A stretch of DNA of 35,912 bases, taken from positions 1-35,912 of the forward strand of contig CAYXZR010000006.1 in the NCBI GenBank assembly GCA_964470025.1, read 5' to 3'. The notes beneath the pieces are model-generated. The model was not told the origin of the DNA. It did no database searches and saw only the letters and a program-made list of their open reading frames with translations. Position numbers and translations under genes: made by a program. This stretch comes from an uncultured Gammaproteobacteria bacterium. GTDB taxonomy: Bacteria > Patescibacteriota > Patescibacteriia > Buchananbacterales > UBA6539. This document shows positions 26,976 through 33,542 of the stretch, piece after piece; positions within the stretch are counted from its first letter, which is position 1, and every line of letters begins with the position of its first letter.

Positions 26976-28049
26976 CTACACCAGCATTTCGTATGCTTCT
27001 GCTAGCAAGCTAGCGGTTGCATCCCAATCCAAACATGGGTCAGTGATTGAAGTGCCATACCGCAGCTTGCGCAATGCGTCGGGTGCTGGAGAAAACTTTT
27101 GACTCCCTCCATTAATGTGACTTTCCAGCATGAGGCCCATGATAGTAGGATTGTTCGCACGGCGCTGACGAAGCACTGCTTTGAAAATTCCTGGTTGCGC
27201 AGTTGCGTCTTTACCAGAGTTTGCATGACTGCAGTCAACCATGATGCGGTCATTAACCCCAGCCTCCTGACACTTCATTGCCACTGCAGCTATTTCCTGC
27301 TCGCCGTAGTTTGAGCCACCCGAACCTCCGCGTAAGACGATGTGTCCAAAGCGATTGCCAGCGGTGGTTAGGGTTGAGACATGACCTGCGCCGTTAATAC
27401 CTAGAAAGCAGTGCTTACCAGCTGCAGCTAACATGCCGTGAATGGCAAGATCTACACTACCTCCCGTGCCGTTCTTGAATCCAAATGGCATGGAAAGCCC
27501 GCTTGCCATCTGTCGATGTGTTTGACTTTCAGCAGTGCGCGCTCCAAGGCATGCCCAGCTGATAACATCGGAAGTGTAGGCTGGGACGATCGGGTCCAAG
27601 AACTCGGTGCCGGTTGGCAAGCCCAGTTCATTGATGGCGATGAGGATTTTACGTGCCTGCTGAAACCCCTCTCGCACGTTAAACGAACCATTCAGCCAAG
27701 GATCGTTGATTAAGCCAGTCCAACCAAGTGTAGTACGCGGCTTCTCGAAGTAAGTTCGCATAAGGATTTCCATGCGATCTGCATAAGTCTGACGAAGCTC
27801 AACGAGACGCTCTGCGTAGTCGAGTGCAGCCTTTTCATCATGAATAGAGCATGGCCCCACAAGTACCAGTAACCGATTGTCTTCGCCGGTGATAATACGA
27901 CGAATTGCCTCTCGAGAAGCAGTGACAGTCTCTGCGGCTACATCAGTAATGGGAAGCATCTCAAGCACCCTATCAGGCGGGAGAAGCTCAGTGGTGCCAG
28001 TAATATTGAGATTATTAGTCCTTAAGTGTTCTGCAACTGCATTTGTCAT
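26976..28049 (-). CDS. aroG: 3-deoxy-7-phosphoheptulonate (DAHP) synthase, class I alpha (AroG/F/H type)
   Basis: 357 aa with GPCSIHD, KPRT, GARTAESQTHRQ and DCSHANS motifs, preceded by an AGGAGA SD. The isozyme specificity is not known. Confidence 0.92.
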   Translation of the reverse strand: MTNAVAEHLRTNNLNITGTTELLPPDRVLEMLPITDVAAETVTASREAIRRIITGEDNRLLVLVGPCSIHDEKAALDYAERLVELRQTYADRMEILMRTYFEKPRTTLGWTGLINDPWLNGSFNVREGFQQARKILIAINELGLPTGTEFLDPIVPAYTSDVISWACLGARTAESQTHRQMASGLSMPFGFKNGTGGSVDLAIHGMLAAAGKHCFLGINGAGHVSTLTTAGNRFGHIVLRGGSGGSNYGEQEIAAVAMKCQEAGVNDRIMVDCSHANSGKDATAQPGIFKAVLRQRRANNPTIMGLMLESHINGGSQKFSPAPDALRKLRYGTSITDPCLDWDATASLLAEAYEMLV

Positions 28050-28167
28050 AAGTGTATTCTCCTGACATTGGTGGAAGTGGCGGTACTATGTACTGCGGTT
28101 ACAATTTACTGCTTGTGATTCTTGTGATTGTTGTGCCCTGTAGTTCCTTTTTTAATGTAATGTGCGA

Positions 28168-28199
28168 TAAACAAAAAACTGACCTTTTTTAGACCAGTT
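28168..28199 (-). terminator. attenuator terminator in the DAHP synthase leader
   Basis: Minus strand reads AACTGGTCT-AAAAA-AGGTCAGTT followed by TTTTTTGTTTATC. Confidence 0.65.
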
Positions 28200-28232
28200 G
28201 CTTTGATACGTATTCACGACAAACTAACTGAT

Positions 28233-28286
28233 CTATAGGTCAGTAAAGAAAAAGCTAAAGAAATAGTTAGAATGTTGTGCTTTCAT
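28233..28286 (-). CDS. Phe/Tyr-rich leader peptide MKAQHSNYFFSFFFTDL
   Basis: 17 codons, checked codon by codon. There are 5 Phe in 6 consecutive positions, preceded by Tyr, with a TAG stop at 28235-28233. Confidence 0.7.
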   Translation of the reverse strand: MKAQHSNYFFSFFFTDL

Positions 28287-28296
28287 ATCTATTTTG

Positions 28297-28325
28297 AGCT
28301 TATACCTCAGAGTATGATTTGTCAA
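28297..28325 (-). promoter_or_regulatory. promoter (TTGACA, then -10 TATAAG/TAAGCT)
   Basis: It abuts the leuA terminator T-run and sits ~10 nt upstream of the leader ATG. Confidence 0.45.
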
Positions 28326-28330
28326 GAAAA

Positions 28331-28360
28331 TAAAAAAGGACCGCCAAAATGGTGGTCCTT
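28331..28360 (-). terminator. intrinsic terminator after leuA
   Basis: Minus strand reads AAGGACCACC-ATTTT-GGCGGTCCTT followed by TTTTTATTTTC. Confidence 0.7.
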
Positions 28361-28370
28361 AAAAGAACGA

Positions 28371-30068
28371 TTATCCCTGTGTTTTAAGGACTTTCTTGGA
28401 ACGACTGATGGCAGCGAGAATCGCCTTGATATTTACATTGCTTGAGTTAGTATCAAGCGCAGCACCCCAGACTTCGACATCGCCAAACGTAAGTTTAACA
28501 AACGATACAGCTGCAGCCTCTGAGCCTAAGCCAGTTGTTGAATCGACAAAATCGACCACCTTAAACCCATTAACTCCAAACTCAGCAAGACCATTCACAA
28601 ATGCATTGATTGGGCCATTACCAGTTCCGATGACTTGCTGCTCACTGCCTTCGACATTGATTTTAGCAAAGACAGTCACCTCGTCACCATCTTGGTTACT
28701 AGAGAACTTAACTAAGGTATGACTACCAGTTGGCTGCATAAATTCATCTTTAAACCATGCCATCACCTGCTCTGCTGTTGCTTCGCCTGCATTGTGATCA
28801 AGATATCCCTGAATCACCTGCCTGACAAATGGTTGAGCGGCTTTGGGAATACTAATGCCGTATTGCTCACGCAACACATGTGCAATGCCTCCCTTACCAC
28901 TCTGCGCATTGATACGGATGATTTTTTCAAACATCCTACCGACGTCCGCTGGGTTAATTATCAAATATGGCGCTTTCCAGCTACCATCTGGCTGGGTGGG
29001 ATTCACTAACCCCTTGCTGATTGCATCTTGGTGGGACCCTGAAAATGCAACATAGACAAGTTCTCCCACATATGGATGCCGAGGATCGATAGGCATGCCC
29101 GTAATTCTCACGACAGTTTCAACTATCTGAGAAAGATTACTAAAGTCGTACTCTAAGGGCAGTTCAATCCCCATTGCCATGCAGTTGAGAATCATAATAA
29201 CTAGGTCAACGTTTCCAGTTCGTTCACCGTGTCGAAAGAGTGTACCCTCGACTCGATCTGCGCCAGCAAGCACTGCATATGTTGCTGAAGCAGTTGCCAT
29301 GTCTTGATCGTTATGAGGATGCGCTGAAATTATCACACTCTCTCGATGAGTGAAACTGCGACAGAAGTATTCAAACTTGTCAGCAACTCGGTGAGGCCAC
29401 ATACGCTCAACAGTGGCCGGGAGATTAAATATCATGCGATTGTCAGGAGTTGCTTTGTTCCAGGCTGTAAACACAGCTTCACAAATCTCCAGAGCAAAAT
29501 CGATGTCAGTATCGGTAAATTCTTCTGGTGAGAACTCCAGATTAATCTGACTGCCAGACATCTGATCTGCAAGCATACTGATGAGCTCGACTGCATGAAC
29601 TGCTCGTGAGATTGTACTTTTTCTATCCAGCTGAAATACACCCTGCATATGCAGCTCTGAAGTGGCGATGTAGGCATGAACAATTGCCTGCTTTACGCCT
29701 ACAAGCGATTCAAAGGTTTTGCGGATCAAGTCTTCTCTGCACTGGGTGAGTACAGCGATGGTTACGTCATCAGGGATGTGGCCTTTTTCGATCAAGAGCC
29801 GAATAAACTCATAATCGTCCTGACTTGCCGAAGGAAAGCCAACCTCTATCTCCTTAAACCCAATACCGACAAGCATGTGAAAGTACTCAAGCTTCTGCTC
29901 AGGGCTCATGGGATTTTCGAGTGCTTGATTGCCATCTCGTAAGCACACGGAGGCAAATGTTACATGCGAAAACGCTTCGGCTTCGTTTCTGTCCGGCCAT
30001 GTTCGGTTGCTGAGCTTAACTGGCTGCGGGGGCCTGTACTGAGTGCGGGTAGCGACTGTAGATGTCAT
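28371..30068 (-). CDS. leuA: 2-isopropylmalate synthase, long (LeuA type 2) form
   Basis: 565 aa with LRDGNQA, HPHNDQDMATA and GERTGN motifs and a C-terminal regulatory domain. Confidence 0.88.
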   Translation of the reverse strand: MTSTVATRTQYRPPQPVKLSNRTWPDRNEAEAFSHVTFASVCLRDGNQALENPMSPEQKLEYFHMLVGIGFKEIEVGFPSASQDDYEFIRLLIEKGHIPDDVTIAVLTQCREDLIRKTFESLVGVKQAIVHAYIATSELHMQGVFQLDRKSTISRAVHAVELISMLADQMSGSQINLEFSPEEFTDTDIDFALEICEAVFTAWNKATPDNRMIFNLPATVERMWPHRVADKFEYFCRSFTHRESVIISAHPHNDQDMATASATYAVLAGADRVEGTLFRHGERTGNVDLVIMILNCMAMGIELPLEYDFSNLSQIVETVVRITGMPIDPRHPYVGELVYVAFSGSHQDAISKGLVNPTQPDGSWKAPYLIINPADVGRMFEKIIRINAQSGKGGIAHVLREQYGISIPKAAQPFVRQVIQGYLDHNAGEATAEQVMAWFKDEFMQPTGSHTLVKFSSNQDGDEVTVFAKINVEGSEQQVIGTGNGPINAFVNGLAEFGVNGFKVVDFVDSTTGLGSEAAAVSFVKLTFGDVEVWGAALDTNSSNVNIKAILAAISRSKKVLKTQG

Positions 30069-30103: not shown

Positions 30104-30128
30104 ATCAAAAAACCTTCCGAGTGGAAGG
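30104..30128 (-). terminator. attenuator terminator in the leuA leader
   Basis: Minus strand reads CCTTCC-ACTC-GGAAGG followed by TTTTTTGATC. Confidence 0.65.
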
Positions 30129-30157
30129 CTGACTACTGAGTATATTTGCTACAAAAT

Positions 30158-30241
30158 TTACGCATCAATCAAACTTCCACCTTGAGGCTGGCTAAGAAGC
30201 AGGCTGAGCAGAAGTGAATTTTGTGCGTAAGAATAGTTCAT
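30158..30241 (-). CDS. Leu-rich leader peptide MNYSYAQNSLLLSLLLSQPQGGSLIDA
   Basis: 27 codons, verified, with 6 Leu in 7 positions and a TAA stop at 30160-30158. Confidence 0.7.
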   Translation of the reverse strand: MNYSYAQNSLLLSLLLSQPQGGSLIDA

Positions 30242-32409: not shown

Positions 32410-32584
32410 GTGCCTGCTCCTGTGGTAGTTTGTGAAAGATCAATTTGAAAAACAAGACAAACAAAAAATCCAGCTGGTGGCTGGACTCTCAAATCGTTTT
32501 GTTCAACGTTTACTAGAAAGCGGCCACCCGTGTAGGCTGGATAATAATGCTAATAATTGAAATGTTAGCGTATTGTGCTTTCAT
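32336..32584 (-). CDS. Ile-rich leader ORF MKAQYANISIISIIIQPTRVAG...; literal frame stays open for 82 codons
   Basis: ATG at 32584. There are 6 Ile in 8 positions. By manual translation the first in-frame stop is TGA at 32338-32336, inside cimA. A TAG-TAA pair (32514-32509) lies one frame off, at the position where a leader stop would be expected. This ORF is not in the supplied track, so it needs re-checking. Confidence 0.45.
32461..32484 (-). terminator. attenuator terminator in the cimA leader
   Basis: Minus strand reads TCCAGC-CACCA-GCTGGA followed by TTTTTTGTTGTC. Confidence 0.6.
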
Positions 32585-32701: not shown

Positions 32702-32783
32702 TGGTCGGGCTAGAAGGAATCGAACCTTCGACCATGTGATGCTAGACTGCATCACACCGCTCTACCGACTGAGCTATAGCCCG
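32702..32783 (-). tRNA. atypical tRNA (82 nt with CCA) with Pro-like acceptor and an 8-9 bp anticodon stem
   Basis: The acceptor (CGGGCTA/TAGCCCG, A73), D arm (GCTC-AGTCGGTA-GAGC) and T arm (GAAGG-TTCGATT-CCTTC) are normal. The anticodon arm is TGTGATGC-AGTCTA-GCATCACA. Confidence 0.6.
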
Positions 32784-33465: not shown

Positions 33466-33542
33466 TGGCACACGTGGCCGGATTCGAACCGACGACAAGC
33501 GCATTGAGTTTTGCGCTGCTCTACCAACTGAGCTACACGTGC
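33466..33542 (-). tRNA. atypical tRNA with an 8-nt anticodon loop (AAACUCAA), G73, CCA encoded
   Basis: GCACGTG-TA-GCTC-AGTTGGTA-GAGC-A-GCGCA-AAACTCAA-TGCGC-TTGTC-GTCGG-TTCGAAT-CCGGC-CACGTGT-G-CCA. All other arms are canonical. Confidence 0.6.

What the first reader, a model, noticed from the sequence alone, without database searches (positions are those of the whole stretch)
28168..28325. pheL-like leader (MKAQHSNYFFSFFFTDL) controlling a DAHP synthase
The leader has five Phe in six codons plus a Tyr, reminiscent of E. coli pheL ([15 protein letters not shown]).

The segment overlapping the stop codon (GATCAGTT, plus-strand 28226-28233) can pair over 8 bp, including one G-U, with the 5' arm of the terminator (AACTGGTC, plus-strand 28192-28199). 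That provides the antiterminator.

In E. coli, DAHP synthase genes are repressed by TyrR or TrpR rather than attenuated. Attenuation of the pathway's entry enzyme is therefore unusual, and it predicts a Phe/Tyr-sensitive isozyme.
Basis: partly seen in the sequence, partly recalled or inferred. Interest (0 to 1): 0.65.

Follow-up and report, generated by a model that had tools for sequence, protein, structure and literature searches.

The report
Aromatic leader-peptide attenuator before DAHP synthase
A 17-codon mini-gene packed with phenylalanine codons, followed by competing RNA hairpins, most likely lets an ultra-small (CPR/Patescibacteria) bacterium switch on its first aromatic amino-acid enzyme only when phenylalanine runs short: a textbook mechanism, conserved in its relatives, in a group where I found no published report of it.

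Summary
The minus strand carries, in order:
- a TTGACA-17-TAAGCT promoter;
- a 17-codon ORF without a Shine-Dalgarno sequence, MKAQHSNYFFSFFFTDL* (28286-28233);
- four alternately complementary segments;
- a U-run;
- a class I-alpha DAHP synthase gene.

Folding with a masked ribosome gives a clean switch. A stall at Tyr8 to Phe14 keeps the 2:3 antiterminator. A ribosome at the stop codon lets the 3:4 terminator form (P about 0.85-0.89).

The decisive evidence is comparative. Six syntenic Buchananbacteria-like relatives and about 12 further distinct metagenome contigs carry a homologous leader, NN[WY]FF[SG]F[YF]FFT[DG]R*, with the same attenuator. It sits in front of DAHP synthases (I-alpha or I-beta), prephenate dehydratase or a TyrA-PheA-type fusion.

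The antiterminator helix covaries. A covariance model built without the window finds it at E = 4e-12.

The element works like E. coli pheL but is not a member of Rfam Phe_leader. The closest published analogue is the Corynebacterium glutamicum aroR-aroF attenuator, so attenuation of DAHP synthase is not unprecedented.

In the window copy, Trp is replaced by Tyr, and its terminator is the weakest in the family. The enzyme has the AroF-type (Tyr-type) glycine.

Verdict: a new member of a known kind. In vivo regulation is untested.

The parts
28327..28359 (-). Intrinsic terminator of the upstream leuA unit (AGGACCACC-ATTT-TGGCGGTCC followed by a T-run). Its T-run abuts the -35 box of the leader promoter.
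   Evidence: Read directly from the sequence. It shows that the leader has its own promoter and is not a read-through of leuA.
28320..28325 (-). -35 box, TTGACA
   Evidence: The same consensus hexamer, 17 nt from the -10 box, is found in all four cassettes of the window. It is also present in nearly every related leader (TTGACA in all but two, which have TTGACT), at 17-nt spacing wherever I measured it.
28297..28302 (-). -10 box, TAAGCT, 17 nt after the -35 box and 10 nt before the ATG
   Evidence: Relatives have TAAnyT at the same spacing and 10-12 nt to the ATG. This implies a 5' UTR of only about 3-5 nt without a Shine-Dalgarno sequence (the transcription start site is inferred).
28233..28286 (-). 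Leader ORF MKAQHSNYFFSFFFTDL*, with a TAG stop
   Evidence: It is homologous to leaders in relatives, for example MTKHFSNYFFGFFFTDR (L057) and MKKTFFNNWFSFSFYFFTDR (L041).
28245..28265 (-). Regulatory codons: TAT TTC TTT AGC TTT TTC TTT (Tyr8, Phe9, Phe10, Ser11, Phe12, Phe13, Phe14)
   Evidence: A ribosome with any of these codons in the A site leaves segment 2 free, and the predicted terminator probability is 0.00.
28237..28244 (-). Segment 1, ACUGACCU (codons Thr-Asp-Leu). It pairs with segment 2 (5 bp, -3.0 kcal/mol) or with segment 4.
   Evidence: The 1:2 helix is the RNAalifold consensus of the family.
28226..28235 (-). Segment 2, UAGAUCAGUU. It contains the stop codon and forms the 5' arm of the antiterminator.
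   Evidence: In the family, 85.6% of cells are paired with segment 3, with covariation.
28190..28199 (-). Segment 3, AACUGGUCUA. It is shared by the antiterminator (with segment 2) and the terminator (with segment 4).
28167..28185 (-). Segment 4, AGGUCAGUU, plus the U-run UUUUGUUUAU: the 3' arm and tail of the intrinsic terminator
   Evidence: The CM match covers 28172-28250.
28050..28166 (-). Spacer of about 120 nt between the attenuator and the gene. It holds the CA-rich tandem AATCACAAG x2 (28112-28129) and the Shine-Dalgarno sequence AGGAGA (28058-28063).
   Evidence: Its length and sequence are not conserved in relatives, where the distance to the first hit on a downstream gene runs from about 35 to 315 nt.
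26976..28049 (-). Class I-alpha DAHP synthase (357 aa), the regulated gene
   Evidence: TIGR00034 aroFGH scores 430.5 bits against a cut-off of 173.2, and PRK12755 scores 462.6 against 343. The best solved relative is E. coli Tyr-sensitive AroF. Gly sits at the AroF/AroG Gly/Ser position.

Best explanation
This is a ribosome-mediated (leader-peptide) transcription attenuator that makes expression of a class I-alpha DAHP synthase depend on the supply of charged tRNA-Phe and, secondarily, tRNA-Tyr.

**Proposed mechanism**
1. Transcription starts a few nucleotides before the AUG, from a TTGACA-17-TAAGCT promoter. The 17-codon ORF is therefore translated from a nearly leaderless 5' end without a Shine-Dalgarno sequence, close behind the polymerase.
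2. With enough Phe-tRNA, the ribosome runs to the UAG stop and covers segment 2 (UAGAUCAGUU). Segment 3 then pairs with segment 4, and the hairpin plus U-run terminates transcription before the gene.
3. If the ribosome stalls on Tyr8 or on any of the five Phe codons (9, 10, 12, 13, 14), segment 2 stays free. It pairs with segment 3 (10 bp), the terminator cannot form, and polymerase reads into the DAHP synthase gene.

**What is shown and what is inferred**
- Shown: the anatomy, the energetics, the position-dependent switch in silico, and the conservation and covariation of the element in related genomes in front of aromatic-pathway genes.
- Inferred: the transcription start, translation of the ORF, and regulated termination in vivo.
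For: 1. **Anatomy.** Promoter, ORF without a Shine-Dalgarno sequence, four alternately complementary segments, U-run and gene lie in the right order.
2. **Ribosome-mask folding.** With the A site at Tyr8 to Phe14, P(terminator) is 0.00 and P(antiterminator) is 0.99-1.00. With the A site at Asp16, Leu17 or the stop, P(terminator) is 0.85-0.89. This is stable for a 3' ribosome reach of 9-15 nt.
3. **Cognate logic, seen three times in the window.** An Ile leader precedes the citramalate synthase, a Leu leader precedes leuA, and the Phe leader precedes the DAHP synthase, all with the same promoter/leader/terminator design.
4. **Relatives found by EF-G synteny, independently of the element.** L040-L045 (EF-G 75-78% identical) all carry a homologous leader and attenuator at the same place. 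The consensus is NNW[FY]F[SGN][FY]YFFT[DGC]R*.
5. **Pattern search.** A pattern derived from these relatives hits the window once (0 expected) and 23 metagenome stretches, 18 of which have an aromatic leader.
6. **Downstream genes are aromatic-pathway genes.** They are DAHP synthase I-alpha or I-beta, prephenate dehydratase, or a prephenate dehydrogenase/dehydratase fusion.
7. **Antiterminator 2:3 in the family.** 85.6% of cells are paired, against 21-47% when the partner is slid. Five pairs and 14 cells show changes on both sides, and 0 of 500 shuffles reach the covariation score. The RNAalifold consensus is 1:2 plus 3:4.
8. **Covariance model.** A CM built from 17 relatives without the window finds 28172-28250(-) at 64.6 bits, E = 4.4e-12. 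It finds nothing in 39 unrelated DAHP synthase loci.
9. **Family-wide mask folding.** P(terminator) is at most 0.01 with the ribosome at the first aromatic codon in 15 of 18 sequences, and 0.85-0.97 at the stop in all 18.
10. **Published precedent.** The C. glutamicum aroR leader (Phe-Tyr-Phe) attenuates aroF and responds to Phe limitation (PMC11802643, PMC4046766).
Against: - The window's terminator hairpin is the weakest of the 18 family members: -5.4 kcal/mol against -6.8 to -17.2. Termination may be inefficient and the dynamic range small.
- At equilibrium without a ribosome, the window's RNA prefers 2:3 plus 1:4, which means read-through. In the E. coli trp attenuator, by contrast, untranslated leader RNA terminates. 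The 1:2 hairpin is only -3.0 kcal/mol.
- There is no Shine-Dalgarno sequence. Translation relies on leaderless or short-leader initiation, which is untested in this lineage.
- The terminator's conservation in the metagenome hits is partly forced by my search pattern.
- No transcript data could be found.
Confidence: 0.85

Rival explanations
1. Decayed or leaky attenuator. The element descends from a working aromatic attenuator, but in this genome the terminator has weakened so far that the DAHP synthase is transcribed essentially constitutively.
For: - The terminator is worth -5.4 kcal/mol, the weakest of 18, with two G-U pairs and only three G-C pairs.
- CTGGTCT replaces the family's CTGATCT.
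- The equilibrium fold without a ribosome is the read-through form.
Against: - The leader ORF, stop position, U-run and all four segments are intact.
- The CM score is high, at 64.6 bits.
- With segment 2 masked, the terminator still forms with P of about 0.85-0.89.
- The other three attenuators in the window also use short stems, at -7.4 to -11.7 kcal/mol.
- The A-to-G change that weakens the terminator also turns an A-U pair into a G-U pair in the antiterminator, so both competing helices are affected.
Confidence: 0.1
2. The short ORF encodes a functional small hydrophobic peptide, such as a membrane peptide or toxin. Its conservation would then reflect the peptide rather than codon sensing.
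For: The C-terminal motif FFT[DG]R and an aromatic core are conserved across about 18 lineages.
Against: - Conservation at the C-terminus coincides with RNA segment 1 (ACUGACC). The N-terminal halves are free to vary.
- F, Y and W interchange within the core.
- The ORF always lies between a promoter and a terminator, in front of aromatic-pathway genes.
- Sister cassettes carry Ile or Leu runs in front of Ile and Leu pathway genes.
Confidence: 0.03
3. The hairpins are read by a factor other than the ribosome, such as a T-box-like tRNA interaction, a TRAP-like protein or a riboswitch ligand. The ORF would then be incidental.
For: Alternative hairpins with a terminator are common to all these mechanisms.
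Against: - No Rfam family (T-box, riboswitches) matches at the gathering threshold or at E up to 10 on this strand. Only noise hits of 12.6-19.8 bits appear, and none is one of these classes.
- The stretch between segments 2 and 3 is short (26 nt in the window) and is not conserved in sequence or length.
- The stop codon is embedded in segment 2 in most of the 18 family members, which is the hallmark of ribosome sensing.
Confidence: 0.02

Closest known systems
Corynebacterium glutamicum aroR leader peptide / aroF (DAHP synthase) attenuator (Neshat et al. 2014, as described in PMC11802643; predicted in PMC4046766)
   Same: - A short leader peptide with aromatic codons (Phe-Tyr-Phe) sits upstream of a DAHP synthase gene.
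- Transcription is enhanced by ribosome stalling under Phe limitation.
- Corynebacterial leader peptides can also be translated without a ribosome-binding site (the ilvB leader, Morbach 2000, cited in PMC4046766).
- In the same organism a single-gene leuA is likewise predicted to have its own Leu leader.
   Different: - The phylum differs: Actinomycetota versus CPR/Patescibacteria.
- I could not test sequence homology because the aroR sequence was not at hand.
- The window's leader has a run of 5 Phe plus 1 Tyr rather than F-Y-F.
- The CPR family keeps a fixed four-segment ACUGACC/GAUCAGU/ACUGAUC/GGUCAGU design.
Escherichia coli pheL-pheA attenuator (Rfam Phe_leader, RF01859)
   Same: - A leader of about 15-17 codons has a Phe-codon run near its end.
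- The stop codon lies close to the antiterminator arm.
- A terminator follows.
- The signal sensed is charged tRNA-Phe.
   Different: - It regulates chorismate mutase/prephenate dehydratase, not DAHP synthase.
- By my recollection, E. coli pheL has a conventional ribosome-binding site.
- The window element does not match RF01859. The only hit is antisense, at 16.9 bits against a gathering score of 55, with E = 3.6.
- There is no homology; the resemblance is convergent.
Escherichia coli trpL-trpEDCBA attenuator (classical 1:2 / 2:3 / 3:4 model, Yanofsky 1981, cited in PMC11802643)
   Same: It uses four segments with mutually exclusive 1:2, 2:3 and 3:4 pairings, and the ribosome position selects among them.
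   Different: In trp the untranslated leader terminates, with strong 1:2 and 3:4 pairing. In the window the 1:2 hairpin is weak (-3.0 kcal/mol) and the equilibrium fold without a ribosome is read-through. Ten of the 18 family members do show the classical default.
Aromatic leader ORFs upstream of I-alpha DAHP synthase homologues seen here: Solirubrobacterales (..RFSY[FW]WRFS*, seven loci), Marinobacter maritimus (..FFWWFGYGFYF..), and two high-GC contigs (..YTSW[HR]R[DA]*)
   Same: Each is a short upstream ORF with clustered aromatic codons, followed by strong hairpins, in front of a DAHP synthase 46-55% identical to the window's.
   Different: They are unrelated in sequence to the CPR family: the CM R1 finds none of those tested (L072 and L073 were not tested). 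They use conventional longer leaders, are not characterised, and I did not validate them beyond inspection.

Membership tests
Classical ribosome-mediated (leader-peptide) transcription attenuator | A short ORF between promoter and structural gene carries clustered codons for the cognate amino acid. | tested here: met
   The leader MKAQHSNYFFSFFFTDL has 5 Phe and 1 Tyr in 7 codons. It is the only such ORF among 460 short ORFs in the window. The gene it precedes is a DAHP synthase, the entry step of aromatic amino-acid synthesis.
Classical ribosome-mediated (leader-peptide) transcription attenuator | An intrinsic terminator (hairpin plus U-run) lies between the leader ORF and the gene. | tested here: met
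   A 9-bp stem, a 5-nt loop and UUUUGUUUAU occupy 28199-28167. The hairpin is weak at -5.4 kcal/mol. It is conserved in relatives, though partly through the way the hits were selected.
Classical ribosome-mediated (leader-peptide) transcription attenuator | A mutually exclusive antiterminator exists whose 5' arm is covered by a ribosome at the end of the ORF but is free when the ribosome stalls at the regulatory codons. | tested here: met
   The 2:3 helix has 10 bp and includes the stop codon. Mask folding switches between Phe14 and Asp16. The helix covaries in 18 sequences.
Classical ribosome-mediated (leader-peptide) transcription attenuator | Translation of the leader and amino-acid-dependent termination occur in vivo. 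| not testable with these tools
   No sequencing runs hold the stretch, and the organism is uncultured.
Rfam Phe_leader (RF01859) | The covariance-model score reaches the gathering threshold (55 bits) on the strand of the leader. | tested here: not met
   There is no hit at the gathering threshold. At E up to 10 only an antisense hit of 16.9 bits appears.
CPR (Buchananbacteria-like) aromatic leader/attenuator family, defined here | The element matches a covariance model built from relatives only, lies at the syntenic position (cimA/leuA ... rpsL), and has the leader motif N[WY]FF[SG]F[FY]F(F)T[DG][RL]*. | tested here: met
   CM R1 scores 64.6 bits with E = 4.4e-12. Synteny is shown. The nearest leaders are L057 MTKHFSNYFFGFFFTDR and L059 MQTYQTNYFFGFFFTDR.
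Class I-alpha DAHP synthase (AroF/AroG/AroH family, TIGR00034) | The HMM score exceeds the curated cut-off, and the alignment is full-length and includes the N-terminal regulatory extension. | tested here: met
   TIGR00034 scores 430.5 bits against 173.2, and PRK12755 scores 462.6 against 343. Residues 11-354 align to E. coli AroF residues 6-345.
Phe-sensitive AroG equivalog (NF006723) / Trp-sensitive AroH (NF009396) | The score exceeds the equivalog cut-off, and Ser occupies the Gly/Ser specificity position. | tested here: not met
   AroG scores 398.6 against a cut-off of 568, and AroH scores 411.9 against 463. The window has Gly (HCFLGING), like AroF (HRFVGINQ). AroG has Ser (HCFLSVTK) and so does AroH (HMFLSPDK). 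The role of this residue is taken from my own knowledge (Hartmann et al. 2003), not tested here.
T-box / riboswitch leaders | The element matches a curated covariance model. | tested here: not met
   There is no such match in the window at the gathering threshold, nor in 27950-28450 at E up to 10.

The most novel reading that the evidence does not exclude
The aromatic attenuator may be a long-lived, modular sensor cassette of Buchananbacteria-like CPR bacteria that outlives its cargo.

- The same promoter, short-leader ORF and four-segment switch is kept at one syntenic site. Behind it the genes are swapped between sister lineages: I-alpha DAHP synthase, I-beta or FXD-type DAHP synthase, prephenate dehydratase, a TyrA-PheA-type fusion, and proteins of unknown family.
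- It sits in an array with Ile, Leu, a mixed Ile/Val/Leu/Lys (in one relative Val-rich) and, in relatives, Pro-codon cassettes.
- On this reading, leaderless leader-peptide attenuation would be the main, undescribed way in which these reduced genomes regulate the few committed-step biosynthetic enzymes they keep. These genomes are poor in transcription factors (my general knowledge).
- The window copy, in which Tyr stands where most relatives have Trp, would have been retuned from sensing Trp, Tyr and Phe to sensing mainly Phe.
Probability: 0.35. Interest if true: 0.7.

Novelty: new member of a known kind. Interest (0 to 1): 0.5.

Why it matters
CPR/Patescibacteria are usually described as auxotrophs with few amino-acid pathways; for example, amino-acid modules are 4% complete in CPR MAGs in PMC13597930. 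I also understand them to have few regulators.

This lineage keeps committed-step enzymes, each behind its own amino-acid-sensing attenuator. That implies these cells do make, and carefully ration, at least parts of aromatic and branched-chain synthesis. It also gives a direct sequence handle for finding which genes they treat as amino-acid-responsive, including genes of unknown function that sit behind the same leader.

The full-text searches I ran found no paper on leader-peptide attenuation in this group.

For attenuation biology, the family offers a compact natural series of about 18 variants: a start without a Shine-Dalgarno sequence, W/Y/F mixes versus Phe-only runs, and terminators from -5 to -17 kcal/mol. 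This series could calibrate how codon choice and hairpin balance set the response.

The mechanism itself is classical, and attenuation of DAHP synthase has a published precedent in Corynebacterium. The finding is therefore solid but not revolutionary.

Tried and rejected
- **Rfam.** I scanned the whole window at the gathering threshold and 27950-28450 at E up to 10. Only tRNAs and noise came up, and the Phe_leader hit is antisense. Membership of RF01859, T-box and riboswitch families is rejected.
- **Genome search.** The genome search failed on the own genome and on relatives. I therefore could not check whether the genome holds the rest of the shikimate pathway or other DAHP synthase copies.
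- **Close homologues of the DAHP synthase.** None exceeds 55% identity among 5.8 billion proteins, and none exceeds 52% in GTDB genomes. Direct orthologue-based comparison was impossible. I switched to synteny through EF-G, and that worked.
- **The window's own contig.** The look-up of encoding contigs has no record for the window's own protein.
- **Transcript evidence.** The look-up of sequencing runs listed no run in two attempts.
- **Ribosome mask.** Masking only a 30-nt footprint let the 5' end of the leader pair across the ribosome with the region after segment 2. This gave a spurious P(terminator) of 0.79 at Phe14. I treated it as an artefact and masked everything 5' of the ribosome's front edge.
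- **Pattern hits without a leader.** L047, L051, L054, L062 and L063 had no ATG-initiated leader ORF by my criteria and were left out. L054 has a weak CM hit at a different place (27.1 bits), which I did not pursue.
- **A second promoter.** The consensus scan finds no minus-strand promoter between the attenuator and the gene. However, the scan also misses the leader's own promoter, because its -10 box matches only 3 of 6 positions, so this is weak evidence.
Full report
**1. What is there**

Read on the minus strand, the region holds these features in order:
- the leuA terminator (28359-28327);
- a consensus -35 box, TTGACA (28325-28320);
- a 17-nt spacer;
- a -10 box, TAAGCT (28302-28297);
- 10 nt without any Shine-Dalgarno sequence;
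- the ORF ATG AAA GCA CAA CAT TCT AAC TAT TTC TTT AGC TTT TTC TTT ACT GAC CTA TAG, which reads MKAQHSNYFFSFFFTDL* (28286-28233).

Four alternately complementary segments follow:
- segment 1, ACUGACCU (28244-28237, the last sense codons);
- segment 2, UAGAUCAGUU (28235-28226, containing the stop);
- segment 3, AACUGGUCUA (28199-28190);
- segment 4, AGGUCAGUU (28185-28177).

After segment 4 comes UUUUGUUUAU, then about 120 nt of spacer, then an AGGAGA Shine-Dalgarno sequence, and finally a 357-aa gene (28049-26976).

That gene is a class I-alpha DAHP synthase. TIGR00034 scores 430.5 bits against a cut-off of 173.2. The best solved relative is E. coli Tyr-sensitive AroF.

The helix in fact runs to 10 bp.

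**2. Is it more than chance?**

- The 151-nt leader folds with z = -3.4 against shuffles.
- The terminator is picked up by the consensus scan, which found 2 sites against 0.3 expected.
- Of 460 ATG ORFs of 10-40 codons in the window, this is the only one with at least 5 Phe in 6 codons. Phe is 4.1% of coding codons.
- The two other intergenic ORFs with such runs are the Ile leader before the citramalate-synthase-like gene (MKAQYANISIISIIIQPTRVAAF*) and the Leu leader before leuA (MNYSYAQNSLLLSLLLSQPQGGSLIDA*).
- A fourth cassette (MKTQPHNLIKQIIKVVLVKSD*) precedes a 100-aa ORF.
- All four share TTGACA-17-TAnnnT, 6-13 nt to the ATG, no Shine-Dalgarno sequence, a short terminator and a T5-6 G run.

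**3. Mechanism in silico**

| Helix | Energy |
|---|---|
| Terminator 3:4 | -5.4 kcal/mol |
| Antiterminator 2:3 with its inner hairpin | -15.4 kcal/mol |
| 1:2 | -3.0 kcal/mol |

I folded the RNA available when polymerase reaches the U-run and masked everything up to 12 nt past the first base of the A-site codon.
- With the A site at Tyr8 to Phe14, P(terminator) is 0.00 and P(antiterminator) is 0.99-1.00.
- At Thr15 the result is intermediate.
- At Asp16, Leu17 and the stop, P(terminator) is 0.85-0.89.
- The boundary moves by at most one codon when the ribosome reach is varied from 9 to 15 nt.

The switch point therefore lies directly after the last Phe codon, as the attenuation model requires. 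Without any ribosome, the equilibrium fold is 2:3 nested in 1:4, which is the read-through form.

**4. Organism and relatives**

SecY is 72-76% identical and EF-G up to 79% identical to proteins of Candidatus Buchananbacteria, Falkowbacteria and other Patescibacteria. The DAHP synthase has no relative above 55% identity, so I used synteny instead.

I fetched six contigs through their EF-G proteins (75-78% identical), a route independent of the element. All six show the same neighbourhood, cimA/leuA ... rpsL-rpsG-fusA. In that neighbourhood each carries a promoter, an aromatic leader and an attenuator.

| Locus | Leader | Downstream genes |
|---|---|---|
| L040 | MQNNRLNNWFFSFYFFTCR* | 243-246-aa protein, then a prephenate dehydrogenase/dehydratase fusion |
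| L041 | MKKTFFNNWFSFSFYFFTDR* | 243-246-aa protein, then a prephenate dehydrogenase/dehydratase fusion |
| L042 | MQNLIRNNWYFGFYFFTGR* | prephenate dehydratase, then I-beta DAHP synthase |
| L043 | MKKILSNNWYFGFYFTDR* | I-alpha DAHP synthase, 46.5% identical to the window's |
| L044 | MQTIRVNNWFFNFYFFTGR* | small unknown proteins, then FXD-type DAHP synthase |
| L045 | ...GGNNWFFGYYFFTDRVG* | small unknown protein, prephenate dehydratase, then I-beta DAHP synthase |

The promoter geometry (-35, 17 nt, TAAnyT, 10-12 nt, ATG) is conserved, and so are the motifs ACUGRCC, CUGAUCU and GGUCAGUUUUUU.

**5. Widening the family**

I used the pattern TTTACYKRCCN{38,68}CTGRTCTN{6,18}TCAGTTTTT.
- It hits all six relatives and hits the window once, against 0.00 expected.
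- It hits 23 metagenome stretches, and 18 of these have an in-frame aromatic leader.
- Some of these leaders have Tyr in place of Trp and resemble the window's: L057 MTKHFSNYFFGFFFTDR*, L059 MQTYQTNYFFGFFFTDR* and L067 MTSLRTNNYFFFTFFFTDRR*.
- L057 lies on a 16,895-nt contig, the same length as the contig recorded for an EF-G 78% identical to the window's. Its leader precedes an FXD-type DAHP synthase.

**6. Comparative test of the structure (alignment A1, 18 distinct sequences)**

- **Antiterminator 2:3.** 85.6% of cells are paired, against 21-47% with slid partners. Five pairs and 14 cells show changes on both sides. 0 of 500 shuffles reach the covariation score. Segment 2 and the outer part of segment 3 were not fixed by the search pattern, so this is genuine evidence.
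- **Terminator 3:4.** It is 98.8% paired, but it is largely fixed by the pattern, so it says little beyond the six independently found relatives.
- **Helix 1:2.** 81.6% of cells are paired.
- **Unbiased consensus.** RNAalifold's own consensus is 1:2 plus 3:4, the terminating form.
- **Mask folding of all 18 sequences.**
  - P(terminator) is at most 0.01 at the first aromatic codon in 15 of 18.
  - P(terminator) is 0.85-0.97 at the stop in all.
  - The window has the weakest terminator of the set.
- **Covariance model.** A model built from the 17 relatives alone finds window 28172-28250(-) at 64.6 bits, E = 4.4e-12. It finds nothing in 39 unrelated DAHP synthase loci.

**7. Comparison with known systems**

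- The element works like E. coli pheL but is not a member of Rfam Phe_leader.
- The closest published system is C. glutamicum aroR-aroF. There a Phe-Tyr-Phe leader attenuates a DAHP synthase operon and responds to Phe, not Tyr (PMC11802643; predicted in PMC4046766). PMC4046766 also predicts a leuA leader and cites an ilvB leader translated without a ribosome-binding site.
- A 2005 survey found no aromatic attenuators in Actinobacteria (PMC1262725).
  - seven Solirubrobacterales loci (..RFSY[FW]WRFS*);
  - Marinobacter maritimus (..FFWWFGYGFYF.., with a strong terminator);
  - two high-GC contigs that hold close homologues of the window's enzyme (55% and 54% identity; ..YTSW[HR]R[DA]*).
- Attenuation of the entry enzyme is therefore not rare. 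It is simply absent from E. coli.
- Full-text searches found no paper on leader-peptide attenuation in Patescibacteria or CPR. CPR genomes are reported as depleted in amino-acid modules, including the shikimate pathway (PMC13597930).

**8. The enzyme**

I aligned the protein with E. coli AroG, AroF and AroH.

| Protein | Motif at the specificity position |
|---|---|
| Window | HCFL-G-ING |
| AroF (Tyr-sensitive) | HRFV-G-INQ |
| AroG (Phe-sensitive) | HCFL-S-VTK |
| AroH (Trp-sensitive) | HMFL-S-PDK |

From my own knowledge, a Gly/Ser exchange at this position switches Tyr and Phe specificity in yeast Aro4/Aro3 (Hartmann et al. 2003) and in the Neisseria enzyme. The PDB holds both FLS and FLG forms of the Neisseria enzyme.

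The inference is a Tyr-type pocket. In that case transcription would sense mainly Phe while the enzyme senses mainly Tyr, the complementary arrangement my recollection also assigns to C. glutamicum aroF. This is untested.

**9. Limits**

- No transcript data exist for this element.
- The transcription start, translation of an ORF lacking a Shine-Dalgarno sequence, and in vivo termination are all inferred.
- The weak terminator leaves a real possibility, about 10%, that this copy is leaky.

**10. Earlier notes of this scan**

I read these after my own analysis. They describe the four-cassette array in this window and similar aromatic attenuators in other CPR genomes. They agree with my result but are not independent evidence.

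One of them says the Ile leader lacks an in-frame stop. That is wrong by my reading: TAG follows codon 23.

**Verdict**

This is a real, conserved, classical leader-peptide attenuator. It is a new lineage-specific family and a new member of a known kind. In the window copy Tyr replaces Trp, it is tuned mainly to Phe, and it has the weakest terminator of the family.

Noticed in passing
L040:3382-3560, L041:4328-4475, L042:2718-2860: Relatives carry another cassette with no Shine-Dalgarno sequence. Its leader has a P-[TV]-P-P motif (MNKHLNSILPTPPCC*, MNYQINPTLPVPPSLP*, MYIHTNSILPVPPSLL*). In L040 and L041, where I read on, a hairpin plus T-run follows, and then not a protein gene but tRNA-like genes with abnormal anticodon arms. 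ARAGORN calls L041:4478-4559 and L041:4576-4660 oddly. It looks like a proline-codon attenuator in front of tRNA look-alikes.
   Followed up: partly
window 32513-32584 (-): The Ile leader upstream of the citramalate-synthase-like gene does have an in-frame stop: MKAQYANISIISIIIQPTRVAAF*, with TAG after codon 23. An earlier first-stage note (e1-4470443) says it runs on into cimA.
   Followed up: yes
window 28233-28286, 30158-30241, 32513-32584 (-): The Phe, Leu and Ile leaders share a layout in which the run is interrupted by Ser: YFF-S-FFF, S-LLL-S-LLL-S and IS-II-S-III. The Phe and Ile leaders also share the start MKAQ[HY][SA]N. This suggests a common origin of the cassettes, or a shared constraint on the nascent peptide or the start region.
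   Followed up: no
L040-L045, L049, L057, L066 versus window 26976-28049: Different DAHP synthases sit behind the same conserved attenuator. They are I-alpha (window, L043, L066), I-beta (L042, L045) and FXD-type (L044, L049, L057). In L040, L041, L046 and L058 a prephenate dehydrogenase/dehydratase fusion takes the place instead (in L048 only its first residues are in view). The sensor is more conserved than its cargo.
   Followed up: partly
L040:4180-4920, L041:4976-5707 (also L046, L048, L058): A 243-246-aa protein is the first gene after the aromatic attenuator. Its only Pfam hit is below threshold, to prephenate dehydratase (E = 0.008-0.018). Small proteins of 130-154 aa in L043 (after its DAHP synthase), L044 and L045 also have no convincing family. 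These are candidates for unknown players in aromatic metabolism.
   Followed up: partly
L016, L018-L023 (Solirubrobacterales); L025 (Marinobacter maritimus); L072:878-1272; L073:3714-4000: Conserved aromatic leader ORFs lie upstream of I-alpha DAHP synthase homologues outside CPR. They read ..RFSY[FW]WRFS*..FFWWFGYGFYF.. (with a strong terminator) and ..YTSW[HR]R[DA]*. These are possibly undescribed attenuator families.
   Followed up: partly
window 28112-28129 (-) and the 28050-28166 spacer: A CA-rich tandem repeat, AATCACAAG x2, lies in an unusually long spacer (about 120 nt) between the attenuator and the Shine-Dalgarno sequence. The other three cassettes have spacers of 41-59 nt. The stretch is not conserved in relatives.
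   Followed up: partly
window 33466-33542 (-) and 32702-32783 (-): ARAGORN reports a tRNA with a 4-nt anticodon (actc) and a second, 82-nt gene that it calls tRNA-Cys. Both lie in the ORF-free tRNA unit upstream of the cassette array.
   Followed up: no
window 30106-30198 (-); L054:3985-4078 (-): The aromatic-attenuator CM gives a sub-threshold hit on the window's Leu attenuator (18.4 bits, E = 0.69), which reflects the shared design. It also gives a weak hit in L054 (27.1 bits), away from the pattern match in that locus.
   Followed up: no
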